Of a stretch of 64,000 bases of DNA, positions 1,360 to 55,318 are shown one piece after another. Below the pieces are notes generated by a model. That model had not been told where the DNA came from and searched no databases. It saw only the letters and a program-made list of their open reading frames with translations. The stretch lies in assembly GCA_026395685.1 (NCBI GenBank), contig JAPLYG010000008.1, positions 15,225 through 79,224 on the forward strand, in the 5' to 3' direction. The DNA comes from Candidatus Parcubacteria bacterium. Lineage in GTDB: Bacteria; Patescibacteriota; Patescibacteriia; CAIXNZ01. Numbering within the stretch: position 1 is the first letter of the stretch; every line of letters begins with the position of its first letter. Both the position numbers and the translations under genes were made by a program.

Positions 1360-1470
1360 ATATTTTATTAATAATTACTACAACAAAACTTCGGACTTTG
1401 GACTTCACTATGTTATTATTATATCATAATTACGAACATTCGTACTTTCGTAAGATTACTATTAACCACT

Positions 1471-7183: not shown

Positions 7184-7196
7184 AAATATAACTTTA

Positions 7197-10100: not shown

Positions 10101-11480
10101 ACCGACCTCAATAATCTTATCGGCTATTTCCGCAGGGTCAATATCGCTAAATTTTTCTAAATGTATTACCACAGCAGCACTCTGACCTGCTTCAATCAAT
10201 TTGAAAGCTACCACTTTATCTAAATTATTAAATTTTCCTAAAAATCTTGCTACCAAATCTGCTCTATTTGCCTCAATTATCTTCAGAACTATTTCCTTAT
10301 GATCTAGCCCGATAAAGATGCCTAAATTGAAAATTAATGCATGAGGCCCATCAGCTACTTCAATAATTTTCAGGGCAATCTCACGATCTAAATCTTTAAA
10401 GTCCTCTAAATATCGCACAACCATGAAACCTTTTCCTTGCTCAAAAAGCATTAAAGCGATTTTTTTATAATCCAACTCTTTAAATTTTTTCAAATTCCTG
10501 ACAAGGGCAGAACTCCCAACAAGAGAAGAGCTCACATTATCCTGCATAATAAGCGCCTCAGCAACTTGCTGATAATTAACACCGTTAAATATATCCGGAT
10601 TCTCGGCGACCGGGATCTCCAGTCCTTCTTTAATTAATTTCAACGCTGTTTCATTATCCAGTTCATGAAACCTTCTTAAATATCCTTTTTCAGCGATATA
10701 AGTTTTTCCGCCTCGTACGTTTAATAAAGCTAATAATATTTGTTTGTGGCTGGCTGGATCAAATGCCTCAATTCTTCTTACCACATCTTCTGCCTTGTTA
10801 TTATTAATTAATTCTATGGCAATTTCCTTATGATTTAAACCTCTGAAATTCCCAAGATAGTTAGCCACATTCTCGCCCTCCCCTCTTTTTATAAGTTCTG
10901 AGGCAATTTCCTGATGATCCAACCCTATAAATTTCCCGAGATTTTGAGCCAGACTCCTGCCCTTACCGCTATCAATAAGTTTTGTGGCGACTTCTTTATG
11001 ATCAATTCCTTTAAACTTTTCTAAATAATCAGCAACAAACTCACCGCCTCCATACTCAAACATGGCCCAGACTATTTTCTGATAGTCCAGCCCCTTAAAT
11101 TCTTCTAAATTTGCAGCAACATCTTTACTTCTTCCAGCCTTAATAAGCAGCAACGCAATTTCTTGGTGAGCATGCCCTTCAAGCTTATCCAAATTATTAA
11201 TAATCACAATGGGCCTAATCTTCCAAATAAGACCGGAAATAATATCCCTAGTATTTTTTCCTTTATTATCCTTTATATATTTATCTAATACTTCTTCCTC
11301 CTGCTTTAGAGCTCTTAATTCTTCAACATATATATTATATTCAACTGGGTATTTTTCTTTCAGCTGAGCAGGCGTCAGCTTGTAGTCTTCCTCAGCAATA
11401 TCAAAAGGAACTCCTTTTTTAAATTTCAGAGCTTGATTTTCAAATTCTTCTTCTGATTTTAGATGTTTGAATTCAGGCAT
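7197..11480 (-). CDS. giant repeat protein paralog (1427 aa) with same repeat array, CCM-motif domain and C-terminal GNAT-like segment
   Basis: Same ~38-aa repeats (FKGLDYQKI..KLIE.G), shared SDPRYATIGDDTSCCMPFG motif, C-terminus IYFHDIAVDPDKQKTGVGMELAWGL resembles GNAT motif A. Confidence 0.8.
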   Translation of the reverse strand: MPEFKHLKSEEEFENQALKFKKGVPFDIAEEDYKLTPAQLKEKYPVEYNIYVEELRALKQEEEVLDKYIKDNKGKNTRDIISGLIWKIRPIVIINNLDKLEGHAHQEIALLLIKAGRSKDVAANLEEFKGLDYQKIVWAMFEYGGGEFVADYLEKFKGIDHKEVATKLIDSGKGRSLAQNLGKFIGLDHQEIASELIKRGEGENVANYLGNFRGLNHKEIAIELINNNKAEDVVRRIEAFDPASHKQILLALLNVRGGKTYIAEKGYLRRFHELDNETALKLIKEGLEIPVAENPDIFNGVNYQQVAEALIMQDNVSSSLVGSSALVRNLKKFKELDYKKIALMLFEQGKGFMVVRYLEDFKDLDREIALKIIEVADGPHALIFNLGIFIGLDHKEIVLKIIEANRADLVARFLGKFNNLDKVVAFKLIEAGQSAAVVIHLEKFSDIDPAEIADKIIEVGEGYTVATLIDRFPGLNNKAMAIRLIANGQGKAVADNLTKFEGMDKDVALAFINANLPEVLSFEFDYFKGLDNEVAIALIIKNFETTVLDNLHKFVDLDHRMIALALIHNGMGPAVADDLEKFTGLKGGDYQLILEALLAEMPSADKVVKFCQEKKVSLNLEKYNYYKDLGLEHKEFWEINEHYDELSKLNKKNRVNKVAEFLLNNPGYIWDREICAWFKELASLIGTENAWKYIKGSDRHDALYFLPDLFQIVTNKEELKNILLQTASDSAVSIEGMDSRQLLVNAVKNFQPGWREEFEKEGWFKNVKTFRKKVELRRKMTPRMQEALNNLQESNPKLYEYANKLIAHPTVGMGPALMLFTDAERFLQLPDSHANKKLQSELEPNQWAELGDGYYTIALRPEDIVKALVEGQIDTMSPFKPYSKDYTMILKNKEARDKEKELDHLAKQIEGNLEKFITVYLADSNQYLSADLNKSLEVFKIIENLDFEELKKYTQERAAGLVSGKKFGDNSEALLEQITQIKDKDDLKKVWRQILESKDIKAEFLAKKIKSKREKFEVKNLIPEEQKILIEDMKAVIEDHRLKYSGEEIIMRAEILPHSDPRYATIGDDTSCCMPFGSGKQNVYLFSPQCGAMTLSFRQPGQSPEEARIVVQSIMTLDKGIGKEKFEKLVTDLRLHGEVNLQETLGPDFLEKFYNSQNVIACDNVEGQNNLVQRLIKNDESIISVIYKAFFDEYRKQLGMENSRVVIGLGYLDYLKNIKTTPPNEFLPQALISYSDNLHDKCLELLPEGAPKDSAKRIGIQDISWRDTFPVAYLEEKIYGSNPALVEGITTMQKILTASNLQAEQEKTNALTLGHFTDAGVLDGYVLGYLAKEPGRDETKIYFHDIAVDPDKQKTGVGMELAWGLMKKIENDDKLNKMPIVMRCRETTSYPIIMKYAGQYNYEIAVDTKMKEAGETFHRLELRKIKK

Positions 11481-13154: not shown

Positions 13155-13250
13155 GGCGAAAACGCCTGCCTCAATGTCACCCTGAGGCTCTCGAAGGGTG
13201 GCGCTCATGGTTCGAGAACCTCACCATGACAACAAAGGGCGTTTTCGCCC
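13154..13250. repeat. 97-bp element bounded by perfect 14-nt inverted repeat GGGCGAAAACGCC/GGCGTTTTCGCCC with internal hairpins
   Basis: Seen directly; second family member at 22070-22156. Confidence 0.6.
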
Positions 13251-13297
13251 AAACTAAACTTCGGCCTTCGGACTTCATCCTTCGGCCTTAAAACCCT

Positions 13298-14370: not shown

Positions 14371-14411
14371 ATATTTCAGCCTTCATACTTTAGTCTTTAT
14401 ACTTTAGACTT

Positions 14412-19023: not shown

Positions 19024-19304
19024 AAAAAAATAGTTTAGAGTTCAAAATTTAAAATGCAAAATTACAATGTGTAGTTTAAAATTTATGTAGATTATTAAAA
19101 TATATATTCCAAAATTTTTAATTATTAACTGTCCCGAAGGGATCCCTTTGGGATAACTTTGCACTTTACACTTTGAACTTTTAATTCAATAAGCACCGAT
19201 TACAAACATTCTATCATGCCTGTCAAGACTGGTCAAGAGGGTAAGGGTAGAACGTGCAAAATAATCAAAAAACGCCCTGTTTTCATAAGGCGTTATCTTC
19301 TCCG

Positions 19305-19357
19305 GCTCTTACACTTTTTTATCCGCCATAGCTTTAGCGGAGGCGGAAGTGTAAGAG
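19305..19357. repeat. GC-rich hairpin element (TCCGCC-ATAGCTTTAGCGGA-GGCGGA core inside longer stem) in hairpin-dense intergenic region
   Basis: Member of the GAAGCTTTAGC-loop hairpin family (see 17-41, 2341-2366, 35399-35426). Confidence 0.5.
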
Positions 19358-20327: not shown

Positions 20328-20491
20328 ATTATATATTTATACCCTGCTTTAGCAGGCAAACAATCTTTTAATGACTAATTTTTAAGTATTAATTTTTATT
20401 GAATTTTTAATGACTTTATTTCTAATTTTATTCATTATCATATTAAATCATTATTTAAAAATTATAAATTAAAAATTAATAATTAGACATA

Positions 20492-26282: not shown

Positions 26283-28001
26283 ATGGTATTTAAAAAACCA
26301 CACATTCCCCATCGCGAGGGAAATTATTCAAAAGAACCCAAATTACGCATCATGGTTTTGGGCGGGCTGGAAGAAGTCGGCCGCAACATGACTGTTTTAG
26401 AATTTGGCAATGACATTATTATTGTTGACATGGGCCTGATGTTTCCCGAAGAAGACATGCCGGGCATTGATTATATTATTCCCAATATCTCCTACTTTAA
26501 AGGTAAGGAAAAAAATATTCGCGGCGTAATTATTACTCATAGCCACATGGATCATATCGGCGGCATTCCTCACATAATGCCCAAAATCGGCAATCCCATT
26601 ATTTATACCGCCAAATTATCAGCCGGTATTATTCAAAAAAGGCAGGAGGAATATAAGTCAGCTCCAAAACTCAAATTTTACATCATTGATGAAAACACCC
26701 ATTTGAAACTGGGAAATTTCAATGTAGAATTTTTCCGAGTTAATCATAATGTGCCTGACAGCTTTGGCGTTGTGATCAAAACTCCGATCGGAACTATTGT
26801 GCATACCGGAGATTTTAAAATTGATCATTCCCCTATTAATGACAAGCCTGCTGACCTGGGCCGCATTGCTCAAATCGGCTCCCAGGGAGTCTTGGCTTTA
26901 ATGGCTGATTCCACTGATGCCGAACATGAAGGCTATCAGATTTCTGAAGCCAGAGTCGGCGAAGAATTGGAAGGTATTTTTGAAAAAGCGACCAACCGCA
27001 TTATTATCGGCACGTTTGCTTCACTCTTAAATCGCGTTCAGCAAGTTATTACTATCGCTGAAAAATTCGGACGCAAAGTTATGATTGAAGGCCGCAGCAT
27101 GACAACCAATGTAGAAATTGCCCATCAGCTCGGCTATATGAAAATCAAGCCAGGCACTTTATTGGAAGCAGAACATTATAATGAAAAAAAATATCCTGAT
27201 GATAAAATTGTGATTATCGGCTCCGGCGCTCAAGGTGAACAAAATGCCTTTTTAGTACGCTTTGCAGAAGATGAACATCGTTTTTTGCATATTAAAGAGG
27301 GCGATACTGTTATTTTTAGTTCCTCGGTTATTCCCGGCAATGAACGCACGATTCAAAATTTAAAGGATACTTTTTATCGCAAAGGCGCCAGAGTTATCCA
27401 TTACAAACTTATGGATGTTCATGCCGGCGGACACGCCAAAAAAGAAGATTTAAAACTATTGATCCGTTTAATCAAGCCTAAATATTATTTTCCGATCGAA
27501 GCCAACCATTATATGCTGCGCTTAAATGGCGAAATTGCGGAAAGTTTGGGAATACCCAAGGATCATATTTTTATTGCTGAAAATGGACAAGTAGTAGAAT
27601 TTACCCACAATGCCGGACACTTAACCCCGGAAAAAGTCCCGACCGATTATGTAATGGTGGACGGACTGGGAGTCGGCGATGTATCAGATATTGTTTTGCG
27701 TGATCGTCGGGTCATGGCTGCTGACGGCATGATTGTAATTATTGCCACCATTGATCGTAAAACCGGAAATATAATCGGCAATCCTGATATTATTTCCCGC
27801 GGTTTTGTTTATATGAAAGAAAATAAAGAATTGATTGAAACGACCAGAATGAAAGCCAAAAAAATATGCGGAGACACCGATCCTAAATCACCGGCTTTCG
27901 ATGATTATATTAAAAATAAAATCCGCGATGATATTGGCCAGTATCTCTATATTAAAACCAAACGACGACCCATGATTTTACCCGTAGTAATTAAAGTCTA
28001 A
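26283..28001 (+). CDS. rnj: ribonuclease J (metallo-beta-lactamase/beta-CASP)
   Basis: ITHSHMDHIGGIP, beta-CASP motifs, 572 aa. Confidence 0.9.
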   Translation: MVFKKPHIPHREGNYSKEPKLRIMVLGGLEEVGRNMTVLEFGNDIIIVDMGLMFPEEDMPGIDYIIPNISYFKGKEKNIRGVIITHSHMDHIGGIPHIMPKIGNPIIYTAKLSAGIIQKRQEEYKSAPKLKFYIIDENTHLKLGNFNVEFFRVNHNVPDSFGVVIKTPIGTIVHTGDFKIDHSPINDKPADLGRIAQIGSQGVLALMADSTDAEHEGYQISEARVGEELEGIFEKATNRIIIGTFASLLNRVQQVITIAEKFGRKVMIEGRSMTTNVEIAHQLGYMKIKPGTLLEAEHYNEKKYPDDKIVIIGSGAQGEQNAFLVRFAEDEHRFLHIKEGDTVIFSSSVIPGNERTIQNLKDTFYRKGARVIHYKLMDVHAGGHAKKEDLKLLIRLIKPKYYFPIEANHYMLRLNGEIAESLGIPKDHIFIAENGQVVEFTHNAGHLTPEKVPTDYVMVDGLGVGDVSDIVLRDRRVMAADGMIVIIATIDRKTGNIIGNPDIISRGFVYMKENKELIETTRMKAKKICGDTDPKSPAFDDYIKNKIRDDIGQYLYIKTKRRPMILPVVIKV

Positions 28002-28149
28002 GACATAAATATTCCTAAAAAATTCCCCCTAATATGGGGAATTTTTTAATTATTAGTAGATTAGTATGGTATTAGTAAATTAGTAGCCTAACTAAACCGA
28101 AGCAATGCCCTAAAACCCTTTATTCTTAGCCAAAACCAGCCACTCAGCA

Positions 28150-28178
28150 TTGACAAAATCAAGTATTTATGCTAATAT
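28150..28178 (+). promoter_or_regulatory. promoter P1 TTGACA-N17-(TG)CTAATAT for GC-rich block gene A
   Basis: Perfect -35, 17-nt spacer, extended -10; same architecture at 30652 and 33386. Confidence 0.55.
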
Positions 28179-28359
28179 TCCCTATTAAAGTAATTATTTA
28201 AGCTATTGAAATAAGGTAATAATTGTTATCTTATTTTAGTAGCTTATTGCTGCTGAATTTGCGAAGGGAGAAACAATACCCTTTTCACATAGATAAAGTG
28301 TTTTTCAGACAAAGAACTTTGACAACTTTACGCATAACAACCAAAAAGGAAGGTGAAAG

Positions 28360-29838
28360 ATGGATAGGAAAAACCTGACGGAAGTGATTCCGGGAGTATT
28401 GTATGACACCACCGTAGGGGATGATTCTCCGCTGCTTTTCAAGACCCAACCCGACGTCCTGTACGACGATGAGGGCCTGGAAATCAGCATCATCGTTGGC
28501 GACTTTGAACTCAAGTGTAAAAGCGAAGAGTTCAACAATAAAACACAGCTCAATTTCCACGAACCACAGGAGCTGCAAGCCAACCTGACGACGATCCTTA
28601 CATCGATCGTTTTCAGTAACAACGCCGAAGACAGCGACCCAACGTGGAAGTACGTGAGTAAAGGAATGGTCGGGGAAATCAAAGGAACTGCCGCGTCCAC
28701 GGCCAAAGAAACCGAGGATGCCGCGCCCATTCCCATGCCCCCCCTGATTGCGGAGGAAAAACCCGAGGCCATTCCCGCTCCACCCGCCGACGAGGAAAAA
28801 AAACCTGAGCCGGCAAAAGACCCGGAACCGCCAAAGCCCTGGGACGAGGAAGAAGAATTTGAGGACTTTCCCGATTTCCCCGTTGACGAGGGGAAAAAAC
28901 CCGAGCCTGAAAAAGCTCCGGAATTCCCAAGGCCCGGGGAAGAAGAAGATCCTTTCCGTTTTGATGTACGAGAACCCGAGCCTGAAAGAGCGCCAATACC
29001 GCCGCGACCCAGGGAAGACTGGGATCGCCCCGCGGATGAAACAGACGATGACATTTTAAGCCATCGCCGCCCACTTCCCCGACGGGAAGAACCGCCTGAA
29101 GAGGAGGCACCGATGAAACGAGGGATTCTCACTTACATTTTGGCGGCAATCGGGATCATCCTGATTTCCGCAATGCTGATTCTTCTGGGTCTCTTTCTCG
29201 GAACCTGGTGGGGTCAAGCCGACATTGACCGCCTGAAGGCCGACAACGGGAAACTCCAGCAGGAGATGAAGGGACTGAAAGCCCTGAATCCGCAAATCAA
29301 AAAGCTGCAGGAGGACATAGTCATTCTTCAGCAGGATAACCGGCTCTACAAGCTGAAAGCGGACCGCTACAGCCAGATTCTCACGAAACTGCTGTGGCCT
29401 ATTCCCGATGACTCGGAGCTGCAAAACTTCGATGTCAACAATAATTTCTGCGCTAACTGGTGCCAGTGGTTGAAGGAGAGCCTTCCCCTGGTTCGCCAGG
29501 ACGCGAAGGCCAACTGTCCGGCATGTTCCAAGCCGGTTGTGCAATCTAGCCGCAACACGAACGTAAAAAAGGCAGTTGCGGCTTGCCCGACTTGCCCGCC
29601 GGCCACTTGCACGAATTGTGTGGAAAGGGATAAAATCTATCCGACGACTCCGCAACAAGTACAGACCCCACCGGAACAAGTGCAGTCCCCGCCGCCACCG
29701 CAGCCTCAACCGGCTACGGAAAACGGTCCGAGGACAAAAGTTTACCCCGGAACTCCGGCGCCCGGTCCTGTCCAACAGGCAAACGCTCCGGCTCCGGAAT
29801 CCAACACCACCGTCAGAACACAAACTATCGACCCCTGA
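28360..29838 (+). CDS. GC-rich bitopic membrane protein: cytoplasmic N-domain with Pro/Glu-rich PEP repeats, TM, coiled coil, Cys-rich region, Pro-rich tail ending TQTIDP
   Basis: 492 aa; TM GILTYILAAIGIILISAMLILLGLF; codon GC3 much higher than neighbours; antisense ORFs are artefacts of high GC. Confidence 0.7.
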   Translation: MDRKNLTEVIPGVLYDTTVGDDSPLLFKTQPDVLYDDEGLEISIIVGDFELKCKSEEFNNKTQLNFHEPQELQANLTTILTSIVFSNNAEDSDPTWKYVSKGMVGEIKGTAASTAKETEDAAPIPMPPLIAEEKPEAIPAPPADEEKKPEPAKDPEPPKPWDEEEEFEDFPDFPVDEGKKPEPEKAPEFPRPGEEEDPFRFDVREPEPERAPIPPRPREDWDRPADETDDDILSHRRPLPRREEPPEEEAPMKRGILTYILAAIGIILISAMLILLGLFLGTWWGQADIDRLKADNGKLQQEMKGLKALNPQIKKLQEDIVILQQDNRLYKLKADRYSQILTKLLWPIPDDSELQNFDVNNNFCANWCQWLKESLPLVRQDAKANCPACSKPVVQSSRNTNVKKAVAACPTCPPATCTNCVERDKIYPTTPQQVQTPPEQVQSPPPPQPQPATENGPRTKVYPGTPAPGPVQQANAPAPESNTTVRTQTIDP

Positions 29839-29876
29839 TCCCTTTAAGGGACAACTTCTTTCACAAGGAGAAAGAA

Positions 29877-30590
29877 ATGAAGAAATTTTTCTACGGCATC
29901 GTAATTCTGATGATCATCGGCTTCGTGTTCCCGGCTCTGGCTGACAGCAATGTCCCGAGCAGGGAATCCAACACGCCGATGGCCTTCCCCACGAAACCGA
30001 CCGTCACCTGGGGAGCGAACAACTACCTGAACGTGGCTCTCCCCGAAAACCCGAGCGTTCCCCTGGTGTTCGGCTACAACGGGAATGGATTTCCCGGCGG
30101 CACCAACTGGCAGATCACGGAAAAGCAAAACTCGCCGAGCGAGCCCCTGCTTTTCACCGTGGAAGTCCAGCTTCCGGGCAGCGCCTACACCGGCCTGACC
30201 CCGAGCATGCTGATCAACACCAGCAAAGCGAACGAGGGCGAAAGATCCGGAATCAACCCCTGGTCTTCCGCCGCCGGCCTGCCTGACAAAGCGCAGTGCC
30301 GGGTCAAAGACGGTCGCTTCCAGTGTCGCTCCGGCTGGGCTGGACAATGGGAAGACGTCAAGATGCCCAATGCCAATTCCGAGGACATCGTCATCTACGA
30401 GCGCGACGTCCCCGACCCCGAGCATCCCAGCCGGGTCGGTGGCAAACTCTGGGTGATCTACAACACCAAGACTGGTGAGACCATCGTGATTTATCCCAAC
30501 ATCACGGGCCTCTACCGTACCATCCGATACGGATTTGCCGCAACCGGCGGAACCATTCTGCTGTGCTTCGTGGCTTTCTTTGTCATTTGA
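29877..30590 (+). CDS. GC-rich secreted protein with MKKFF signal peptide and C-terminal hydrophobic anchor (GG-TILLCFVAFFVI)
   Basis: SD AAGGAG 6 nt upstream; signal peptide MKKFFYGIVILMIIGFVFPALA; 39-nt gap from gene A suggests co-transcription. Confidence 0.65.
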   Translation: MKKFFYGIVILMIIGFVFPALADSNVPSRESNTPMAFPTKPTVTWGANNYLNVALPENPSVPLVFGYNGNGFPGGTNWQITEKQNSPSEPLLFTVEVQLPGSAYTGLTPSMLINTSKANEGERSGINPWSSAAGLPDKAQCRVKDGRFQCRSGWAGQWEDVKMPNANSEDIVIYERDVPDPEHPSRVGGKLWVIYNTKTGETIVIYPNITGLYRTIRYGFAATGGTILLCFVAFFVI

Positions 30591-30604
30591 ACACAAATGA
30601 ATAC

Positions 30605-30641
30605 AAGCCGAGTATGCCTTTAAGGCAGCTCGGCTTTTTTA
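30605..30641 (+). terminator. rho-independent terminator after gene B
   Basis: AAGCCGAG...CTCGGCTT + T6. Confidence 0.65.
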
Positions 30642-30651
30642 TTTCAATTTA

Positions 30652-30680
30652 TTGACAAAAGTTATAGAATCTGCTAATAT
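30652..30680 (+). promoter_or_regulatory. promoter P2 TTGACA-N17-(TG)CTAATAT
   Basis: Same architecture as P1/P4. Confidence 0.55.
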
Positions 30681-30768
30681 CTTATATTAAACTATAAATT
30701 ATAGTTACTACGTACATTTATAAAATTTTAACCCTAAACACTTCCCTACGGGGAGCAAAGGAGTCAAG

Positions 30769-31467
30769 ATGAAGAAATTCTTTGTGATCATGTTTTTGCT
30801 GGTAGTAGGCTTTACGGTCTTGGCTCAGGCCGAGCCGGCACAGCCTCCGCCTGCGAGCAACCAGCCGGGCGTACTGCCCAATGTTAATGTCATTGTCCCT
30901 CCCTACTTATGGATTGATAACTTTGTAACCGGGGAAAATGGCATTCTGGAACACCATGTTGCCAACCTGAGACTTATTCAGGAATGGCTGCGTGATAATC
31001 CCTCCGACATTGCTGCTTTGATCGGCATGGTCTCTGACCTGAAAATCAGAGGCTATTGCTACTACAATTATTCAACAGGCTTTTATAGTCTGAAGTACAA
31101 TCAAGCCGGCAGTACTGTCAATCAGGGAGATCGAGTCTGCCAGGAAGCCCTGTCGCTCAGCCGGGCAATTTCCATCCGCAACTGGTTGCTTACGCCGCAA
31201 AACTGGCTAAAAGACAAACAGGGCAATCCCATTAAAATTGATGAGTTCCGTATCAGAATCCTGGATGTGAAAGCTCTGGGATTACGCGGGGGCGGCAACT
31301 TTCCCAACCAGTCAGTCGCTGTCTGGATGCTGTCTTTTAATCAGGCAAAGCAAGGTCCTGGCATTCTGACGCTGACGCAGGGCCCTCCTGCGCCCGTGCC
31401 AACGCCCGAGATAGCTCCTCGCAGGCGACCCAAGACAACGATCTATACTCAGAAAATTGACCCTTGA
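30769..31467 (+). CDS. GC-rich secreted protein with MKKFF signal peptide, Pro-rich tail ending YTQKIDP
   Basis: SD AAAGGAG; signal peptide MKKFFVIMFLLVVGFTVLAQA; C-terminus shares TQxIDP with gene A. Confidence 0.7.
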   Translation: MKKFFVIMFLLVVGFTVLAQAEPAQPPPASNQPGVLPNVNVIVPPYLWIDNFVTGENGILEHHVANLRLIQEWLRDNPSDIAALIGMVSDLKIRGYCYYNYSTGFYSLKYNQAGSTVNQGDRVCQEALSLSRAISIRNWLLTPQNWLKDKQGNPIKIDEFRIRILDVKALGLRGGGNFPNQSVAVWMLSFNQAKQGPGILTLTQGPPAPVPTPEIAPRRRPKTTIYTQKIDP

Positions 31468-31477
31468 TTTAAAATCA

Positions 31478-31510
31478 ACCGGGCAGTGAGTTTTCACTCG
31501 CCCGGTTTTT
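31478..31510 (+). terminator. rho-independent terminator after gene C
   Basis: CCGGGCAGTGAG..TCACTCGCCCGG + T5. Confidence 0.6.
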
Positions 31511-31836
31511 CTTTTCTAAATATTTGCTAAAATATTATTCGCACGGTATATTGCAACTATATGATAGGTAAGTATGCTTTTTACATTCTAATTTTGGCTA
31601 ACTTAGGATAATCCCTTAAAATATTGACTTTTTATAAAGCAAATGATAAACTCCCATATCAAGTAAGAATAAGCTTTTTAAAAGAATTCATTTGTCTAAA
31701 TTGATTCTTTCAAGCAGCTTAAAAGCTGTTGAGAATAATAGGTTGAGTTTTTTCCATAAACCAAAAGTGTTTTGTTATTTCACAAAAATTCTCCCTCACG
31801 GGAGACTAGATTTCCCTGAAGGGAAAGGAGGATCAA

Positions 31837-33183
31837 GTGATGATCAGAAATAAGATGACCTTGCTCTTGCTTTGGATCAGTTTTTTTGCCATTGGCGCCT
31901 CCGGGCAGTTCAACTGCATTGACGGTGATGTGCACGAAGGTGATAAAAACTACTATGGCGATCGTGATCCTGACGGCGACGGTTATAATAACCGAGTTGA
32001 TTGCAGTGATCAGGATCCCAATCGTTGGGTATTCATCATTGCATATCCTGACCATGATGGTGACGCTATGCCTGAACAAGGCCCGACCATTAATATCTGC
32101 TCCGGCACTACAACTCATGCCCCTGCGGGCTGGACTTTCAATGACTCACCAATGGATCCCTGCCCCAATGATCCCGAGAACATCTGCGGGGTAACAGTTC
32201 CATTTTGCCAGCTCGCTGGCGTTGCCAATGGCCATACGACTACCCTAACTGCCACAGCTACTTACACCAATGGCTCCTTTGACCGAGTGATTTTCTACGC
32301 AGGAAATATGGTGGTCAAAACTGATACCACTCCAGCTGACGGCTGGACTGCTATCCTAACCAATGTCCCCAACGGTGTTTACACCTACCATGCCATTGCC
32401 TTTGCCACTGACGGCAATTCTGCCTTGTCTAACTTTGTTACCATTACCATCAATGACACTGGCGCTTGTATGCCGACACTGACCATCACATGGGCTTATG
32501 CCATTGCTCCTGAGAAAACCTACTATGGTGGCTGGTTTGGTTCTTGCTTTACCAGCATTTTCGGACAAGATCCCTGGTGGCAGTTTGGACCGTTTAGCAG
32601 CTGCCATGAATGCAGCCAATCCGGCGTAGTTTTTCCCGGTAGTTTGAATTTGGGCTTTTGCGAATTCAGTGGCACTGTGCCCAGAAGCCTGAACGAAAAT
32701 CCAACAGCGCCCTTTACCACCGATCGCGGTGATATTGTGGACTATTTCATTACCGGCTATCCTGACGGACACATTTATAATGGCTTGGCTCCTGGATCGC
32801 CGGCAGCTTACTTCGACAACTGTGCCAGTATTATTCAGCTCTCAGTAGCTCAGATAAATCATCCGTGGGGTGCCAACTATTTCATTGCCTTTACTGCCCC
32901 GCTGGCAGGTAATACGGCTAATATCTTCGTTACCTCGCCGATTGACTCTGATAGTGACGGCTGGATGAATGCTTGTCCTCCCAACACAACTTGTCAGGCG
33001 GATAACTGTATCCGTTTTGAAAATCAGACCCAGCTGGATTCAAACAGCGATGGAGTCGGTGATGCCTGTACTGCCAATCCTGACCCGAATTTTTGGGATC
33101 AAGATAATGACTGGTACTTGGACGGACCCAATGTTGCGGAATCTGATCGGGATCATTACCCGACTGATAGAACCCGGCATTAA
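31837..33183 (+). CDS. secreted Ca-binding protein with thrombospondin type-3-like Asp-rich repeats and Ig-like domain (paralog D, moderate GC3)
   Basis: Signal peptide; DPDGDGYNNRVDCSDQD, DSDSDGWMNACP, DSNSDGVGDAC motifs; SD AAGGAGG; ends PTDRTRH. Confidence 0.8.
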   Translation: MMIRNKMTLLLLWISFFAIGASGQFNCIDGDVHEGDKNYYGDRDPDGDGYNNRVDCSDQDPNRWVFIIAYPDHDGDAMPEQGPTINICSGTTTHAPAGWTFNDSPMDPCPNDPENICGVTVPFCQLAGVANGHTTTLTATATYTNGSFDRVIFYAGNMVVKTDTTPADGWTAILTNVPNGVYTYHAIAFATDGNSALSNFVTITINDTGACMPTLTITWAYAIAPEKTYYGGWFGSCFTSIFGQDPWWQFGPFSSCHECSQSGVVFPGSLNLGFCEFSGTVPRSLNENPTAPFTTDRGDIVDYFITGYPDGHIYNGLAPGSPAAYFDNCASIIQLSVAQINHPWGANYFIAFTAPLAGNTANIFVTSPIDSDSDGWMNACPPNTTCQADNCIRFENQTQLDSNSDGVGDACTANPDPNFWDQDNDWYLDGPNVAESDRDHYPTDRTRH

Positions 33184-33196
33184 ATTTTAACTATTA

Positions 33197-33237
33197 CGGG
33201 CTGCGACTTAGACACATCTAAGCCAGCCCGTTTTTTT
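33197..33237 (+). terminator. rho-independent terminator after paralog D
   Basis: CGGGCTG-CGACTTAGACACATCTAAG-CCAGCCCG + T7; near-identical copy after paralog E. Confidence 0.7.
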
Positions 33238-33385
33238 ATTGAAAAAAGATCTCCAAAAATTACATTTCTTACCCTTTTATCCCTGTCTGCGAAATTACCC
33301 ATAAATACGCCTAAAACCACATTTTTAAAATTGCTTATTTTAGCTAATTTTACCCTAATTCTAGCCAAAATAAAACATCAACCTC

Positions 33386-33414
33386 TTGACATTTGCAAAA
33401 AAATATGCTAATAT
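33386..33414 (+). promoter_or_regulatory. promoter P4 TTGACA-N17-(TG)CTAATAT for paralog E
   Basis: Same architecture as P1/P2. Confidence 0.55.
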
Positions 33415-33660
33415 ACCCTATTAAACTAATCTTAGATAAAAGCCGAATTTAAGCTATTAAAAAGAGTTATATAATAATTAATTCTTTTTAGCAGCTTAAT
33501 AAGCTGTTTTGGATATTTAGAGAAATAAAAGCATGGACTTTAACTCCTGCTTATTGACATAGATGGTTAAGCATTTTTGGATAAAGGAATTTGTTTTTTG
33601 ACAACACCCTACTCTCCCCCAAAGGAGACGATTTTCCCCGCGGGGGAAAAGGAGAATACC

Positions 33661-35001
33661 ATGAACGCGAAAAGACTTATTACGGTTCTTCTGGTTCTCG
33701 GCTGTTTGACTTCGACCATGGGTGCGACCTGCATCGACGGCGACCTCAACGAGGGCGACAAAACCGTCATCAACAAAAACGACCACGACAACATCGACAC
33801 TGACGGCGACGGCGTGCTCGACATCAACGACTGCGCCCCGCTCGACCCGAGCAAGTGGGCCGAGAAAGATGCCCGCCCCGACACTGACGGCGATAACCTG
33901 CCCGAAAATGGACCGGCAATGCAGGTCTGCAGTGGGAACACCACCCCTGCGCCTATTGGCTGGACCTGGGTGGCTTCGCCGCTCGATCCCTGCCCCAATG
34001 ACCCGCAGAACATCTGCGGTACGGTCAATCCGACCTGCCAGATCACAGCGGTGGCCAGCGGCCACACTGTGTCCCTCACGGCGACTGTCGCTTACACGAG
34101 CGGCACTATCGCCCGAGTGGAATTCTATAAGGGTATCACGCTGATCGGGACGGACAACACAGCCAGCAATGGCTGGAATCTGACCTGGACCAACGTGCCG
34201 AATGGGACCTACACGCTTCAGGCCATTGCGTTTGCCTCTGACGGCAAGACCGCAACCTCTAACGAGGTCACGGTTACCGTCAATGTCGGCGCTCCGACAT
34301 GCGTGCCCACGCTGGCAATTAGCTGGGGCTATAACATTCCCCAGAACACGACCTACTACAACTCGTGGTATGGATCCTGTTTCACCACCTTCGACGGCCA
34401 GGACCCCTGGTGGCAGTATGCGCCCTATGGCTACTGCCGCGAGTGCGCTCAGGCTGACGAAGTGTTTGCCGGAAGCTTCAACGAGGGTTTCTGTGATTTC
34501 AACAACACGGTTCCCAAAGTGCTTAACGGCAACCCGCTCGCTCCGTTCACCACGGATCGTGGCGACATCGTTGACTATGCCCTTGTCGGTTACACTGACG
34601 GGCATATGTACAACGGTCTGGCCCGCATGCCGACTGCGACCTTCAACAACTGCATTACTACGGTCAGTCTGCCTGTGGTCCCCGTGAACCAGGCCTGGGG
34701 TGCGAACTTCAGGGTGTATTTTACGGATGCGGTCGATCCGATTGATGGGGACACCATCAACGTGATCGTCAGCACGCCGATCGATTCCGACAACGACGGT
34801 TTCCCGAATGCCTGCCAGCCCGGCACCACGTGTCAGGCCGACAACTGCATTCGCTTCGAGAATCCCGAGCAGACCGACACCGACCATAACGGCGTCGGCG
34901 ATGCCTGCACGAACCATGCCAATCCGGACGAGAACGATCCGGACAATGACTGGTTCATGAATTTCGAAGACGCATTTCCGTATGATCGGACGCGTCATTA
35001 G
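33661..35001 (+). CDS. secreted Ca-binding TSP3-like repeat / Ig-like protein (paralog E, very high GC3); start at MNAKRL
   Basis: Internal ATG with SD GGAGA 5 nt upstream and a signal peptide right after; ORF-track extension to 33577 reads through the leader; long minus-strand ORF 33517..35034 is a GC artefact; ends PYDRTRH. Confidence 0.8.
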   Translation: MNAKRLITVLLVLGCLTSTMGATCIDGDLNEGDKTVINKNDHDNIDTDGDGVLDINDCAPLDPSKWAEKDARPDTDGDNLPENGPAMQVCSGNTTPAPIGWTWVASPLDPCPNDPQNICGTVNPTCQITAVASGHTVSLTATVAYTSGTIARVEFYKGITLIGTDNTASNGWNLTWTNVPNGTYTLQAIAFASDGKTATSNEVTVTVNVGAPTCVPTLAISWGYNIPQNTTYYNSWYGSCFTTFDGQDPWWQYAPYGYCRECAQADEVFAGSFNEGFCDFNNTVPKVLNGNPLAPFTTDRGDIVDYALVGYTDGHMYNGLARMPTATFNNCITTVSLPVVPVNQAWGANFRVYFTDAVDPIDGDTINVIVSTPIDSDNDGFPNACQPGTTCQADNCIRFENPEQTDTDHNGVGDACTNHANPDENDPDNDWFMNFEDAFPYDRTRH

Positions 35002-35014
35002 AACTTGACTACAA

Positions 35015-35056
35015 ACGGGTTGCGACTTAGACAAATCTAAGCCAGCCCGTTTTTTA
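35015..35056 (+). terminator. rho-independent terminator after paralog E
   Basis: Same CGACTTAGACA(A/C)ATCTAAGCCAGCCCG hairpin as after D. Confidence 0.7.
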
Positions 35057-35311
35057 TTTATACGAATATTATTTTATATACAACGAATGGCAGATTAATC
35101 ATCTTAATTAACCTTGCGCAGAGTATCCTTATAAAATGTAATAGGTGAAGCTTTATTATGCGAATATTATTTTTATACTGCGAATAACTGATTTTGAAAT
35201 ACTCTTCCAATTACCAATGCCTAATGCCCAATACCAAATTACAGTCTATTTACAGCCAGAGTATAATTAAGTAGAATTAATATATTGTATATACTGGTAA
35301 CCAATCAAACC

Positions 35312-35340
35312 TTGACAAAACGCTAAAATTATAGTAAAAT
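35312..35340 (+). promoter_or_regulatory. putative promoter TTGACA-N17-TAAAAT for rnpB
   Basis: Located ~35 nt upstream of the predicted RNase P RNA 5' end. Confidence 0.45.
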
Positions 35341-35371
35341 ATCCATATAACTGAACACTATTGTTCAGTAG

Positions 35372-35968
35372 CTAAATATCCAAACAAGCAGATGATCACC
35401 CCTCCGAAGCTTTAGCAAAGGAGGGGAGGAAAGTCCGGACTTTATGCCCTGCTCCGCACCGGAGATTCTAAATCCAAAAATCCTAAATCTTAAACATTTT
35501 TTAATTTTGTTATTTGAACATTTGAATTTGTTTGAAATTTGGTGCTTGAGATTTGGTGCTTCCGTTGCGGAGCAACGGTAAGGGTAACGGGTAACGCCCG
35601 CCCGTTTAATAGCAATATTAAATGAGGACCAGTGCCACAGAGACAATTCTAGCGAGTCCCGCTTTGCGGGGCGGGGTTGACTCGGCGGCTTATAAGCCGC
35701 CTCGCCAAAGGTGAAAAGTATCTCGATGTTTTTTGTTCTCGAGACAAAAGGCTACGAGAATCGGCCTCTGGCAACAGAGTGTCCGCGGTAAACTCTACCT
35801 AAAGCAAGGACAAACCCACCCCAGCGCAAGCAACGGTGGTGACAAGTAGTCCGCTAGAGCTCGGCAGCAATGCCCAGCCCAGATAGATGATCATCCTTCG
35901 ACAACCTCAGGATAATCTCCTGATAAGTCGAGGACAAAATCCGGCTTATAGTTTGTTTGGATATTCAG
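35372..35968 (+). ncRNA. rnpB: RNase P RNA (bacterial type A) with large AT-rich insertion
   Basis: GGAGGGGAGGAAAGUCCGG (P4), GGGUAACGCCCGCCC, GACCAGUGCCACAGAGAC, AAGGUGAAA, ACAAAAUCCGGCUUAUAG match universally conserved RNase P RNA regions in order; P1 pairing AUAUCCAAACAA/UUGUUUGGAUAU. Confidence 0.85.
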
Positions 35969-37454: not shown

Positions 37455-37702
37455 TTTCAGTCCTTCATTTTTCAATTTCGACATTCGCCTGCCTACCGAA
37501 GCCTAATGAACGAAGACAGGTTACGTTCAACGTTTGACCTGCCTGCCGTCAGGCAGGCGAAAAACATTACGCCAAATAAAACCTGTAAACGAATAACCAA
37601 TTTAACAGCCAACAGCTGTTTTTTTGATTGTCCAAAAAACTTGATATTTATGCTAAAATAGTTTAAAATATGGTTATTATAGTATTAAATACCTTGGCCT
37701 TT

Positions 37703-37730
37703 CCCGCGTAGCGGGATGCCGCTTCGCGGC
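37703..37730 (+). repeat. tandem hairpin motif CCCGCGTAGCGGG + GCCGCTTCGCGGC in 5' UTR of GT4 gene
   Basis: Near-identical pair at 55276-55303 upstream of DUF4349 gene. Confidence 0.55.
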
Positions 37731-37746
37731 TCAGACTTCAATTCCT

Positions 37747-48135: not shown

Positions 48136-49377
48136 TTACCTCTTTTTGCGTAATATCGTCATTACGGGGACTTCTTTACTCAATTGTATCAAAATTGCCT
48201 TATCTTGTCCTCCATGGACTTCCTTAACAAACTTCTTCTCGTCTAAATCAAATATTTCAGGGATTTTAAATTTAAAATTTTCACCCTTAGGAACTATGGC
48301 CTCAACCTCATCTCCCTGCCGTATTACATTATGCACTTTAATTACCACTTTAGGACTTTCGACTTTAGACTTTAGACTTTTTATGATTTCACCGCAGAAT
48401 TCCACATCAGGCCGCACATACGGCGCATCATATTTCTGCATTTTAAACTTTTCCGTCCCAAAATAAAAACCTGTCGTAAATTCCCTGTTAGAAATTTTAT
48501 TCAACTCCTGAAATAACCTATTAATCATTACCTTTCGTATTTTCGTACTTTTTCGTACTTTCGTAAGATCAATACCCTGTCTATACACCTTCACCACATT
48601 CGCTAAGTACGAAATGCTCTTGGTCCTGCCCTCAATCTTAAAATGCTTAACCCCAGCTTTAGCCAGTTCATCCAGATACTTAATCATACAGATATCCTTA
48701 GAGCTCATTATATATGTCCCATTGTTATCTTCTTCAACCGGAATAAATTTGCCGGGGCGGGTTAATTCTTCCAGATATAATTTATAAGCCCAGCGGCAGG
48801 GATGAGAGCAATCGCCTAAATTCGCACTGCGCTGGTTAAAATAGGCAGACAATAAACAGCGTCCGGAATAAGAAACACACATGGCACCGTGGACGAAAAC
48901 TTCCAATTCCAATTGCGGGACTTTCTTATGAATCTCTGCAATTTCATTAATGCTTAATTCCCGGGCCAAAATTATACGCTTAACGCCCTGCTCATACCAA
49001 AACTTTGCAGCTTGCCAATTTGTGCAATTTGCCTGGGTAGACAAATGCAAATCGATTTTTTTCAGATATTTTTTAGCCAAGGCCAGAATGCCGGGATCGG
49101 AAATTATTACTGCATCAGGCTTTATTTTTGCCAATAACTGCAATTGTTTTTCAACTTTGGGCAAATGATAATTATGGGCATAAATATTAACCGTAACATA
49201 TACTTTTTTACTGCGCTGATGTGCATATTTTATTGCTTCTTCTAATTTTTTCGGGGTATAATCATTGACTCTGGCGCGTAAACTTAAATCAGGCAAACCC
49301 AGATAAACTGAATCTGCCCCGTATTCCAAGGCGTATTTCATTTTAATAAAGTTGCCGGCTGGCGCTAGTAATTCCAT
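48136..49377 (-). CDS. U32-family peptidase (RlhA/TrhP-like)
   Basis: MELLAPAGN..ALEYGADSVYLG N-terminal U32 signature; contains in-frame short tandem repeats. Confidence 0.8.
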   Translation of the reverse strand: MELLAPAGNFIKMKYALEYGADSVYLGLPDLSLRARVNDYTPKKLEEAIKYAHQRSKKVYVTVNIYAHNYHLPKVEKQLQLLAKIKPDAVIISDPGILALAKKYLKKIDLHLSTQANCTNWQAAKFWYEQGVKRIILARELSINEIAEIHKKVPQLELEVFVHGAMCVSYSGRCLLSAYFNQRSANLGDCSHPCRWAYKLYLEELTRPGKFIPVEEDNNGTYIMSSKDICMIKYLDELAKAGVKHFKIEGRTKSISYLANVVKVYRQGIDLTKVRKSTKIRKVMINRLFQELNKISNREFTTGFYFGTEKFKMQKYDAPYVRPDVEFCGEIIKSLKSKVESPKVVIKVHNVIRQGDEVEAIVPKGENFKFKIPEIFDLDEKKFVKEVHGGQDKAILIQLSKEVPVMTILRKKR

Positions 49378-54733: not shown

Positions 54734-55120
54734 ATGGGAGGAGAGGATACTAAGAATTGGGACCTGAATAAAAATGCTTTAGTACGTCTGGGAGTCATTG
54801 CGGTTTTATTATGTTTGATGTTATTCCTTGGCTTTATTGCCGGATCTAACGCCTCAAAAGGAAAAGCAGGAACTTTGAAAGCCGGGGAATATCATGCTTA
54901 CAGCGTGCAAAAAGCTTTCACCCCGCAGGGGAACCCGATTTATTGGATCCTTGCTGAAGAGACAAAAGATGTGAATTTGTGTCCTAATGGAGCAGTTCCA
55001 GTTATTCAATCGGGAACACTGAAATTTTACGAAGTTCCTCGCGAACGTGTAACAAATCTTGAGTACGACAGCAACCCAGATCCAAAATTCAATTACCAGG
55101 GAGAAATCATCATAAAGTAA
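54734..55120 (+). CDS. small membrane-anchored hypothetical protein (paralog of 56504..56953), SD-led
   Basis: AAGGAGAG SD; shares KAGEYHA...KAF.P...P.YW...FY..PR.RVTNL with paralog. Confidence 0.55.
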   Translation: MGGEDTKNWDLNKNALVRLGVIAVLLCLMLFLGFIAGSNASKGKAGTLKAGEYHAYSVQKAFTPQGNPIYWILAEETKDVNLCPNGAVPVIQSGTLKFYEVPRERVTNLEYDSNPDPKFNYQGEIIIK

Positions 55121-55134
55121 TCCCCACCCCATCC

Positions 55135-55166
55135 AAAACCGCGTGCTGCTAGCCGCGGTTTTTTCT
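55135..55166 (+). terminator. rho-independent terminator
   Basis: AACCGCG..CGCGGTT + T6. Confidence 0.6.
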
Positions 55167-55240
55167 TTAAAATAACCATATTACTCAAATTCCCCCATTT
55201 TTGCTATACTTAATTTAATAAGGACGAAGTTTAAAGTATG

Positions 55241-55318
55241 AAGTACGAAGCCAAAAATTTCAAACTTCATACTTTCCCGCGTAGCGGGAAGCCGCTCCGC
55301 GGATCATTCTTCGTACTT
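55241..55318. repeat. IR-flanked (AAGTACGAAG/CTTCGTACTT) element containing tandem hairpins CCCGCGTAGCGGG + GCCGCTCCGCGG
   Basis: Same tandem hairpins as 37703-37730; flanks match the AAGTATGAAGTACGAAG repeat family. Confidence 0.55.

What the first reader, a model, noticed from the sequence alone, without database searches (positions are those of the whole stretch)
29839..33660. Small YTCCC-loop-GGGAR hairpins placed immediately 5' of the SD in all block genes
Upstream of B (TCCCTTTAAGGGA, 29839-29851), C (CTTCCCTACGGGGAG, 30741-30755), D (two tandem: CTCCCTCACGGGAG 31791-31804 and TTCCCTGAAGGGAA 31812-31825) and E (TCTCCCCCAAAGGAGA 33613-33628 and TTTTCCCCGCGGGGGAAAA 33632-33650), the hairpin ends within 0-15 nt of the SD. 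In E the first hairpin pairs an SD-like GGAGA with a CU-rich strand. Similar back-to-back palindromes (TCCCGAAGGGA/TCCCTTTGGGA, 19132-19153) lie upstream of uvrA. This is a candidate cis-acting translational or stability element, or a protein-binding site, common to the regulon.
Basis: seen in the sequence. Interest (0 to 1): 0.6.

Follow-up and report, generated by a model that had tools for sequence, protein, structure and literature searches.

The report
Small RNA hairpins before ribosome-binding sites
Four neighbouring secreted-protein genes of an uncultured Parcubacteria bacterium each carry one or two small G+C-rich RNA hairpins just before an unusually strong ribosome-binding site; the hairpins are real, non-random and kept in relatives, but they look like an ordinary kind of leader stem-loop rather than a new regulatory system.

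Summary
All seven palindromes are at the stated coordinates. TCCC-N2-7-GGGA occurs 10 times in 10 kb of intergenic DNA against 0.46 expected, and the reverse polarity never occurs.

The hairpins lie at the 3' end of long A+T-rich leaders (B: in the 38-nt A-B spacer), 0-13 nt before strong Shine-Dalgarno sequences. All 5 block genes have such a sequence, against 2 of 33 other genes. Gene A has no hairpin.

Only three related contigs exist. They keep the hairpins: loops change freely, and in the C orthologue the stem is rebuilt from different bases (CUUCCC/GGGGAG to ACCCUU/AAGGGU). This favours an RNA structure over a shared protein-binding sequence.

D and E are duplicates of a whole promoter-leader-gene-terminator unit, so there are about three independent cases, not six.

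- No Rfam family matches.
- Fifty distant Patescibacteria loci show neither the arrangement nor the motif excess.
- Two other motif matches (37702, 55275) belong to a different 10-bp hairpin.

Best reading (confidence about 0.4): structural stem-loops that stop 5'-to-3' decay of processed leaders and keep the ribosome-binding site clear. In D/E the first hairpin is also a latent anti-SD/decoy-SD pair. Function is untested.

The parts
29839..29851 (+). B hairpin UCCCU-UUA-AGGGA. It starts immediately after the stop codon of A (TGA 29836-29838), inside the 38-nt A-B spacer.
   Evidence: -4.7 kcal/mol; formed in the MFE and centroid structures
29856..29876 (+). B second hairpin UUCUUUC-ACAAGGA-GAAAGAA. 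It presents the SD (AAGGAG 29865-29870) in its loop and 3' arm and ends 1 nt before ATG 29877.
30741..30755 (+). C hairpin CUUCCC-UAC-GGGGAG (or UUCCC with a UACG tetraloop), followed by the SD AAAGGAG 30757-30763 and ATG 30769.
   Evidence: -6.7 kcal/mol. The orthologue in L083 has ACCCUU-AUC-AAGGGU at the same place.
31790..31805 (+). D hairpin H1, UCUCCC-UCAC-GGGAGA (anti-SD-like 5' arm, SD-like 3' arm).
   Evidence: -8.8 kcal/mol
31811..31826 (+). D hairpin H2, UUUCCC-UGAA-GGGAAA. It abuts the SD GGAGG 31827-31831; start codon GTG 31837 or ATG 31840.
   Evidence: -5.8 kcal/mol
33613..33628 (+). E hairpin H1, UCUCC-CCCAAA-GGAGA.
   Evidence: -5.3 kcal/mol. The MFE structures of E disagree: some show nested pairing with H2, one shows two separate hairpins.
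33632..33650 (+). E hairpin H2, UUUUCCCC-GCG-GGGGAAAA. It abuts the SD GGAG 33651-33654; ATG 33661.
   Evidence: -9.2 kcal/mol
33386..33612 (+). E promoter (TTGACA-17-TGcTAATAT, 33386-33414) and conserved A+T-rich leader of about 240 nt, with a long 5'-proximal stem-loop and a GCAGCUU/AAGCUGU hairpin. The leader is homologous in D, L001, L083 and (5' half) A.
   Evidence: (repeat family D8)
31624..31789 (+). D promoter-like site (TTGACT-17-TAAACT, 31624-31652) and homologous leader.
30652..30740 (+). C promoter (TTGACA-17-TGcTAATAT, 30652-30680) and leader of about 80 nt.
   Evidence: about 92% identical in L082 by my reading
28150..28359 (+). A promoter and leader. The 5' half is homologous to the E leader. 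It has a strong SD (AAAAAGGAAGGTGA) but no SD-proximal Y/R hairpin.
19132..19153 (-). Back-to-back palindromes UCCC-AAA-GGGA / UCCC-UUC-GGGA in the uvrA leader, about 50 nt after a predicted promoter and about 108 nt before the ATG. uvrA has no SD.
   Evidence: also folds as one nested hairpin, -9.5 kcal/mol

Best explanation
The palindromes are small RNA stem-loops in the 5' leaders (C, D, E) or the intercistronic spacer (A-B) of a lineage-specific cluster of secreted or surface-protein genes. Selection acts mainly on the pairing, not on a recognition sequence.

Each hairpin sits between a long A+U-rich, nuclease-prone leader and a very strong SD (7-9 nt complementary to the usual 16S tail, on the assumption that this organism has the usual tail).

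Proposed mechanism (inferred, not shown):
1. An endonuclease cuts the A+U-rich leader, or the A-B transcript.
2. The 5'-to-3' exonuclease RNase J, encoded next door, trims up to the base of the hairpin.
3. This leaves a stable, 5'-structured mRNA that starts just before the SD.
4. The hairpin also insulates the SD from the leader. Its purine 3' strand runs straight into the purine-rich SD and may pre-stack it.

The closest analogues are the cggR-gapA and glnR-glnA processing sites of B. subtilis, the ompA and aprE leaders, and the cip-cel intergenic stem-loops.
For: **Shown here**
- The hairpins are real and about 20 times more frequent in intergenic DNA than chance, with strict 5'-pyrimidine/3'-purine polarity. 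Fifty distant Patescibacteria loci show no such polarity: CCC..GGG 197 against GGG..CCC 231.
- They lie downstream of consensus extended -10 promoters, inside leaders of 80-240 nt, or directly after the stop codon of A.
- Orthologous and paralogous loci keep them:
  - L001: CUCCCC-UUC-GGGGAG and UUUUCCC-AUAUU-GGGAAAA.
  - L083: UUCUCCC-UUUU-GGGAGAA.
  - All loops differ in sequence and length, while the proteins are only 48-61% identical.
- In the C orthologue of L083 the hairpin is at the same place but only 4 of 15 bases are the same. In the structural register, 4 of 6 pairs changed on both sides.
- A hairpin within 10 nt before a GGAG-plus-start was found at 3 of 25 sites in the window (exactly C, D, E) and 3 of 6 in relatives. 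Control Patescibacteria loci gave 11 of 233, mostly spurious.
- RNase J is encoded at 26283-28001.
- Block genes have an SD in 5 of 5 cases against 2 of 33 for other genes, and atypical GC3. This sets them apart as a distinct expression class, which could mean high expression or foreign origin.

**From the literature**
- RNase Y cuts A+U-rich unstructured RNA, and a stem-loop at the new 5' end stabilises the product against RNase J1 (bioRxiv 10.1101/2023.03.12.532304).
- GC-rich intergenic stem-loops set processing and stability in a secreted-protein operon (PMC10311766).
Against: - No transcript data exist. The predicted primary 5' ends are 55-240 nt upstream, so the hairpins are 5'-terminal only if processing occurs, which is assumed.
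- Gene A and two other SD-bearing genes (54734, 56504) have no hairpin.
- H2 of the L083 paralogue is degenerate, at -0.4 kcal/mol.
- Only three related contigs exist. D/E hairpins are shared by descent and their stems are conserved in sequence, so covariation rests on one comparison. Its register is ambiguous, because MAFFT shifts it by 1-2 nt.
- Stabilities are modest.
- No endonuclease (RNase Y or E) was identified in the window.
Confidence: 0.4

Rival explanations
1. Translational switch by SD mimicry (D/E family). The 5' arm of H1 (UCUCCC) is an anti-SD and its 3' arm (GGGAGA) is a decoy SD. While the decoy holds the anti-SD, the true SD about 25 nt downstream is free. A factor or a refolding of the conserved 240-nt leader that captures the decoy would release the anti-SD arm to shut the true SD. 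The hairpins would then be the expression platform of a leader-borne regulator.
For: - The H1 stem is conserved in sequence (UCUCC(C)/(G)GGAGA) in all four D/E-type leaders although the loops differ. A pure structural spacer, as in the C family, drifts.
- Replacing the purine arm of H1 in silico lowers the probability that the SD is unpaired: 0.26 to 0.02 (D), 0.40 to 0.02 (E), 0.70 to 0.19 (L001).
- The rest of the leader is conserved and structured.
Against: - No sensor or alternative pairing partner for the decoy is conserved.
- The effect is absent for B and C.
- Gene A shares the 5' half of the leader but has no H1 or H2.
- Long-range folds are inconsistent between homologues.
- No Rfam family matches.
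- With only four related sequences, sequence conservation may simply reflect shared descent.
Confidence: 0.2
2. Binding sites for one regulatory protein (on DNA or RNA) that co-regulates the block.
For: - The stems share a YYCCC/GGGRR flavour.
- They occur upstream of four neighbouring genes with related promoters.
- The loop of B's second hairpin, ACAAGGA, resembles the CsrA SELEX consensus (own knowledge).
Against: - Half-site spacing varies from 3 to 6 nt.
- Stem sequences differ within one genome, and the C orthologue rebuilt its stem from other bases.
- The hairpins lie 55-200 nt downstream of the promoters.
- Gene A lacks them.
- The GGA lies in the stems, not the loops, of the YTCCC hairpins.
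Confidence: 0.1
3. No dedicated function. The G+C-rich palindromes are by-products that travelled with G+C-rich, SD-dependent foreign genes and were then copied by duplication of the D/E unit.
For: - Block genes have GC3 of 0.49-0.77 against 0.24-0.42 for all but one other gene, and an SD in 5 of 5 cases against 2 of 33.
- G+C content rises about 30-55 nt before each start codon, by my reading of the sequence.
- D and E share leader and terminator.
- Block proteins have almost no homologues.
Against: - Stems are kept while loops and flanks diverge.
- The C stem was rebuilt in a relative.
- The strict polarity bias is absent from control genomes.
- The position next to the SD is kept in three gene families.
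Confidence: 0.15
4. Transcription attenuators, or terminators of antisense transcription.
For: - On the minus strand, H1 of D and of L001 is followed by a T-run (sequence).
- The B hairpin was flagged as weakly terminator-like.
Against: - No U-tract abuts the stems on the sense strand.
- The minus-strand T-run is absent in E and L083.
- The real terminators of the block have 10-13 bp stems and 6-8 U.
Confidence: 0.05

Closest known systems
Stem-loops at RNase Y processing sites that stabilise the downstream mRNA against RNase J1 (B. subtilis cggR-gapA, glnR-glnA)
   Same: - A small stem-loop follows the first gene of an operon or sits in an A+U-rich leader, just upstream of the next ribosome-binding site.
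- The organism encodes RNase J.
- The literature shows that the hairpin stabilises the cleaved product.
   Different: - No cleavage site or processed 5' end is known here.
- No RNase Y was seen in the window.
- The hairpins here are shorter (5-8 bp) and often tandem.
5'-UTR stabiliser leaders of abundant envelope or secreted proteins (E. coli ompA hp1/hp2, B. subtilis aprE, S-layer gene leaders)
   Same: - Long leader with several stem-loops, one next to the ribosome-binding site.
- The genes encode exported proteins.
- Strong promoter and strong terminator.
(These resemblances rest on my own knowledge of those systems.)
   Different: - In those systems the key hairpin is at the very 5' end of the primary transcript.
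- Here a long A+U-rich 5'-proximal stem-loop exists, but the finding's G+C-rich hairpins are at the 3' end of the leader.
Intergenic GC-rich stem-loops of the cip-cel cellulosome operon (Ruminiclostridium cellulolyticum, PMC10311766)
   Same: GC-rich stem-loops between genes for secreted proteins. In that operon they act as processing signals and as end-protectors that set stoichiometry.
   Different: That is one long operon. Here most genes have their own promoter and terminator, and only A-B is an intercistronic case.
SD-sequestering riboregulators (anti-SD / anti-anti-SD expression platforms; ROSE and fourU thermometers)
   Same: In D/E, H1 pairs a CUCC anti-SD-like strand with a GGAG SD-like strand. 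In silico, freeing the anti-SD strand closes the true SD.
   Different: The true SD is outside the hairpins and predicted to be largely free. No sensor domain was identified.
STAB-SD of Bacillus thuringiensis cry3A
   Same: An SD-like purine block lies upstream of the real ribosome-binding site in a long leader of a highly expressed gene. The SD of D, GAAAGGAGG, equals the STAB-SD core (own knowledge).
   Different: STAB-SD must be single-stranded to bind 16S rRNA. Here the upstream SD-like blocks are base-paired.

Membership tests
5'-terminal stabiliser stem-loop (ompA / aprE / processed gapA type) | Stem-loop within a few nucleotides of the 5' end of the mature transcript | not testable with these tools
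   No transcript data. Predicted sigma-70-type promoters place primary 5' ends 55-240 nt upstream, so the feature would be met only after processing.
5'-terminal stabiliser stem-loop (ompA / aprE / processed gapA type) | The organism has a 5'-end-dependent nuclease that such a structure can block | tested here: met
   RNase J (beta-CASP and C-terminal domains; E = 1e-41 and 3e-31) at 26283-28001.
5'-terminal stabiliser stem-loop (ompA / aprE / processed gapA type) | Pairing, not sequence, is under selection | tested here: inconclusive
   C family: the stem is rebuilt and 4 of 6 pairs changed on both sides in the structural register. D/E family: stems are conserved and loops free. Only 3-4 sequences per family.
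SD-sequestering riboregulator / RNA thermometer | The functional SD or start codon is base-paired in the regulatory hairpin | tested here: not met
   The true SD lies 0-13 nt 3' of the hairpins. Only B's second hairpin partly includes the SD, and mostly in its loop.
Intrinsic terminator / attenuator | G+C-rich stem followed directly by a U-tract on the transcribed strand | tested here: not met
   The tails are CAACUUC, CAAAGGAG, CUAGAUUU, AAGGAGG and CGAUUUU. The scan flags only the weak B site.
Palindromic operator of a dimeric transcription factor | Fixed half-site spacing and conserved half-site sequence near the promoter | tested here: not met
   Spacing is 3, 3-4, 4, 4, 6 and 3 nt. Half-sites differ (ACCCTT in L083). 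The hairpins lie 55-200 nt downstream of the -10 element.
REP/BIME- or MITE-like dispersed palindromic repeat | Many near-identical copies dispersed in the genome | tested here: not met
   The copies are not alike beyond CCC/GGG. No repeat family was found for them. The motif is at chance density in 50 related loci. Only 64 kb of this genome could be read.
CsrA/RsmA binding site | GGA in the loop of a short hairpin, usually two or more sites, one overlapping the SD | tested here: inconclusive
   In the YTCCC hairpins GGA is in the stem (not met). B's second hairpin has the loop ACAAGGA over the SD. No csrA gene is in the window.
Any Rfam family | Score at or above the gathering threshold | tested here: not met
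   Only a tRNA passes in the window. Nothing better than E = 1.7 in 27900-35400.

The most novel reading that the evidence does not exclude
The roughly 240-nt conserved leader shared by A, D, E and their orthologues is an undescribed cis-regulatory RNA of a Parcubacteria lineage. The tandem anti-SD/decoy-SD hairpins would be its expression platform. It would switch translation of a set of G+C-rich, SD-dependent surface-protein genes, possibly host-attachment proteins, in an organism whose other genes mostly initiate without an SD.
Probability: 0.1. Interest if true: 0.65.

Novelty: new member of a known kind. Interest (0 to 1): 0.3.

Why it matters
If the hairpins are stabilisers or insulators, they are one more example of a well-known way to boost expression of exported proteins. 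That has modest value, mainly for annotating and engineering CPR/Patescibacteria genes, where almost nothing is known about mRNA decay and translation signals.

The context may be more useful than the hairpins. The block is a compositionally foreign set of SD-dependent surface-protein genes with conserved structured leaders, in a genome where 31 of 33 other genes lack an SD. This suggests two initiation regimes in one cell. It also marks candidate highly expressed surface proteins of an episymbiont lineage.

Tried and rejected
**Searches for more homologous loci**
- Anchor-based fetch of 80 loci through the neighbouring sugar transferase. The closest is only 52% identical. None carries block genes, and the motif is at chance density there. 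These loci were useful only as controls.
- Protein searches. D/E have 3 members in all, C has 3, and B has none but itself. A proper covariation test is therefore impossible.
- Metagenome scan with the conserved leader pattern AGCAGCTTAA-N0-2-AAGCTGTTK. It gave 117 loci, all chance matches.
- Viral-contig scans with E and C found nothing.

**Structure and model approaches**
- Rfam found nothing relevant.
- RNAalifold and MAFFT on the leaders misregister the short stems. I therefore tallied pairs by hand and did not use the count of structure pairs.
- I did not build a covariance model. The motif carries too little information and has too few seed sequences. A rule-based hairpin + SD + ORF scan replaced it.
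- A first in-silico arm mutation to U-runs created artefactual pairing with the SD. I redid it with CA repeats.

**Ideas rejected**
- Operator, intrinsic terminator, REP-like repeat, and SD-sequestering thermometer (see the membership tests).
- The 37702 and 55275 matches as members of the same element. They are parts of one 10-bp hairpin.
- A conserved leader peptide. The short upstream ORFs I read in the leader sequences are not conserved.

Full report
**Context**

- The window comes from a Candidatus Parcubacteria (CPR/Patescibacteria) metagenome-assembled genome. Gene D is NCBI NTZ49_01945, on an 83-kb contig.
- The window is 39% G+C overall, and most of it outside the block is 33-45% G+C.
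- Five consecutive plus-strand genes stand out: A 28360-29838, B 29877-30590, C 30769-31467, D 31837/31840-33183 and E 33661-35001. They are 49-58% G+C, with GC3 of 0.49-0.77. All but one of the other genes have GC3 of 0.24-0.42.
- The block lies between RNase J (26283-28001) and an RNase P RNA plus a sugar transferase.
- B-E begin with N-terminal hydrophobic segments that look like signal peptides (my reading of the translations). D and E are paralogues with Ig-like and thrombospondin-type-3 calcium-binding repeats.
- A, C, D and E each have a TTGACA-17-TGnTAATAT-type promoter, a long A+T-rich leader and a strong terminator. B follows A after 38 nt.

**The observation**

| Count | Observed | Expected from shuffles |
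|---|---|---|
| TCCC-N2-7-GGGA, whole window | 12 | 3.9 |
| TCCC-N2-7-GGGA, intergenic (10.1 kb) | 10 | 0.46 (max 3 of 200) |
| GGGA..TCCC, intergenic | 0 | 0.35 |
| CCC..GGG, intergenic | 19 | 3.7 |
| GGG..CCC, intergenic | 1 | 3.6 |

- Such palindromes read the same on both strands, so the 5'-pyrimidine/3'-purine polarity is intrinsic.
- The polarity is absent from 780 kb of other Patescibacteria DNA (197 against 231).
- Five of the ten intergenic matches lie in the 1.4 kb of block spacers.
- Of the other five:
  - two are the uvrA pair;
  - one is a terminator (49968);
  - two (37702, 55275) are parts of a different, nearly identical 31-nt element. It folds as a single 10-bp hairpin, CCGCGuAGCGG-GAWG-CCGCUyCGCGG, at -19 kcal/mol.
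- Gene A has no SD-proximal hairpin.

**Anatomy**

- The proximal hairpin ends 0 nt (D, E), about 2-4 nt (C) or 13 nt (B) before the SD.
- B has a second predicted hairpin, 29856-29876, that displays the SD in its loop.
- The SDs are very strong: GAAAGGAGG in D, AAAGGAG in C and E. All 5 block genes have an SD, against 2 of 33 other genes, whose starts sit in plain A+T-rich sequence.
- The 3' arm of each hairpin is all purine and runs into the purine SD. The 5' arm is all pyrimidine.
- Isolated stabilities are -4.7 to -9.2 kcal/mol in the window.
- A few non-block genes without an SD also have a stable hairpin 15-20 nt before the start: 37747, 22615 and 19428. Start-proximal hairpins are therefore not exclusive to the block.

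**Relatives**

Only three related contigs exist in the collections.

- **L001 and L083** come from GCA_041308785.1. **L082** comes from SRA run SRR23086392.
- **L001**: the E orthologue (61% identical to E and 48% to D in amino acids) keeps both hairpins with new loops, CUCCCC-UUC-GGGGAG and UUUUCCC-AUAUU-GGGAAAA-GGAGG.
- **L083, D/E-type gene**: a strong H1 (UUCUCCC-UUUU-GGGAGAA, -10.5 kcal/mol) and a degenerate H2 (-0.4 kcal/mol).
- **L082** (88% amino-acid identity): keeps the C hairpin almost unchanged.
- **L083, C orthologue** (59% identity): has ACCCUU-AUC-AAGGGU at the same place.
  - Only 4 of 15 bases match the window hairpin, although the SD region just downstream is identical.
  - In the structural register, 4 of 6 pairs changed on both sides.
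  - MAFFT prefers a 1-2 nt shifted register, so this is better described as a stem rebuilt in place.

The D, E, L001 and L083 leaders are homologous over their whole length, and A shares the 5' half. The D, E and L001 terminators are also alike. D and E therefore arose by duplication of a whole expression unit. The independent cases number about three: B, C and D/E.

**Controls**

- Among 50 distant Patescibacteria loci, a hairpin of at least 5 bp within 10 nt before a GGAG-plus-start-plus-ORF occurs at 11 of 233 sites, mostly inside coding DNA.
- The same scan gives 3 of 25 in the window (exactly C, D, E) and 3 of 6 in the relatives.
- No Rfam family matches.
- The metagenome scan and the viral scans added nothing.

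**Interpretation**

These features point to an RNA structure and away from a common protein-binding sequence or DNA operator:
- variable loop length (3-6 nt);
- G-U pairs only on the sense strand;
- free loop evolution;
- the rebuilt C stem;
- different stem sequences within one genome.

The true SD is outside the hairpins, so they are not classical SD-sequestering elements. No U-tract follows them, so they are not terminators.

The best-supported mechanism is by analogy. In Firmicutes, RNase Y cuts A+U-rich unstructured RNA, and a stem-loop at the new 5' end protects the product from RNase J1 (cggR-gapA, glnR-glnA). GC-rich intergenic stem-loops likewise set processing and stability in the cip-cel operon.

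Three facts here fit that scheme: the long A+U-rich leaders, the hairpin right after the stop codon of A, and an RNase J gene next door. Processing itself is assumed, not shown.

**A twist in the D/E family**

- H1 pairs a CUCC(C) strand (anti-SD-like) with GG(G)AGA (SD-like).
- Its stem is conserved in sequence in all four leaders.
- Removing the purine arm in silico lets the pyrimidine arm close the true SD. The probability that the SD is unpaired falls from 0.26-0.70 to 0.02-0.19.
- This leaves room for a switch, but no sensor is evident, and B and C show no such effect.

**Verdict**

The finding is a real, lineage-specific, probably functional set of leader stem-loops. It is a new member of a familiar kind. 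The regulon or protein-site reading is not supported, and the function remains untested. Interest is modest (0.3). The unusual expression class of the block genes is the more noteworthy context.

Noticed in passing
window 28360-35001: The five block genes are compositionally foreign: 49-58% G+C and GC3 of 0.49-0.77, against GC3 of 0.24-0.42 in all but one other gene. All five have a strong SD, while only 2 of 33 other genes have any SD. Their spacers and promoters are host-like, at about 31% G+C. The proteins have almost no homologues anywhere.
   Followed up: partly
window 37700-37732 and 55273-55305: A nearly identical 31-33 nt G+C-rich element, TTTCCCGCGTAGCGGGAWGCCGCTYCGCGG, folds as one 10-bp hairpin (-19 kcal/mol). 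It lies in the otherwise dissimilar 5' leaders of a glycosyltransferase gene (37747) and a DUF4349 gene (55345). It is absent from all 200 fetched loci.
   Followed up: partly
window 1360-1470, 13250-13297, 14373-14411, 19156-19180, 20328-20400, 48355-48379, 55121-55270: Many leaders contain degenerate short tandem units of the type ACTTCGGACTTCATACTT / ACTTTAGACTTTA, or their complement AAAGTGCAAAGT, immediately before start codons that lack an SD. Part of this is repeat family D9. They could be a lineage-specific SD-independent initiation or leader motif.
   Followed up: no
window about 35375-35964 (and L001 about 2520-2950): An RNase P RNA gene follows the E terminator. It scores 99.7 bits, just under Rfam's gathering score of 100, and was missed in the gathering run. 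It appears to carry a lineage-specific insertion around 35440-35560.
   Followed up: partly
window 2341-2366, 19322-19347, 35400-35425: Three copies of a 26-nt hairpin, CCCNCCGAAGCTTTAGCNNAGGNGGG (repeat family D17). One is inside the queuosine-synthesis gene, one in the uvrA upstream spacer, and one at the 5' part of the RNase P RNA region.
   Followed up: no
window 54734-55120 and 56504-56953: Two small paralogous membrane-anchored proteins share the motif KAGEYHA...FY.(I/V)PR.RVTNL. They are the only non-block genes with a clear SD, and they have no upstream hairpin.
   Followed up: no
window 3125-11480 (minus strand): Two very large adjacent ORFs (1352 and 1427 aa) contain about 81-87-nt periodic internal repeats (repeat families D1-D3). 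They look like repeat proteins and were not annotated here.
   Followed up: no
window 30769-31467: Protein C contains an OmpA-C-like motif (LSLSRAISIRNWL). The match to solved OmpA-family structures is not significant (E = 0.8).
   Followed up: partly
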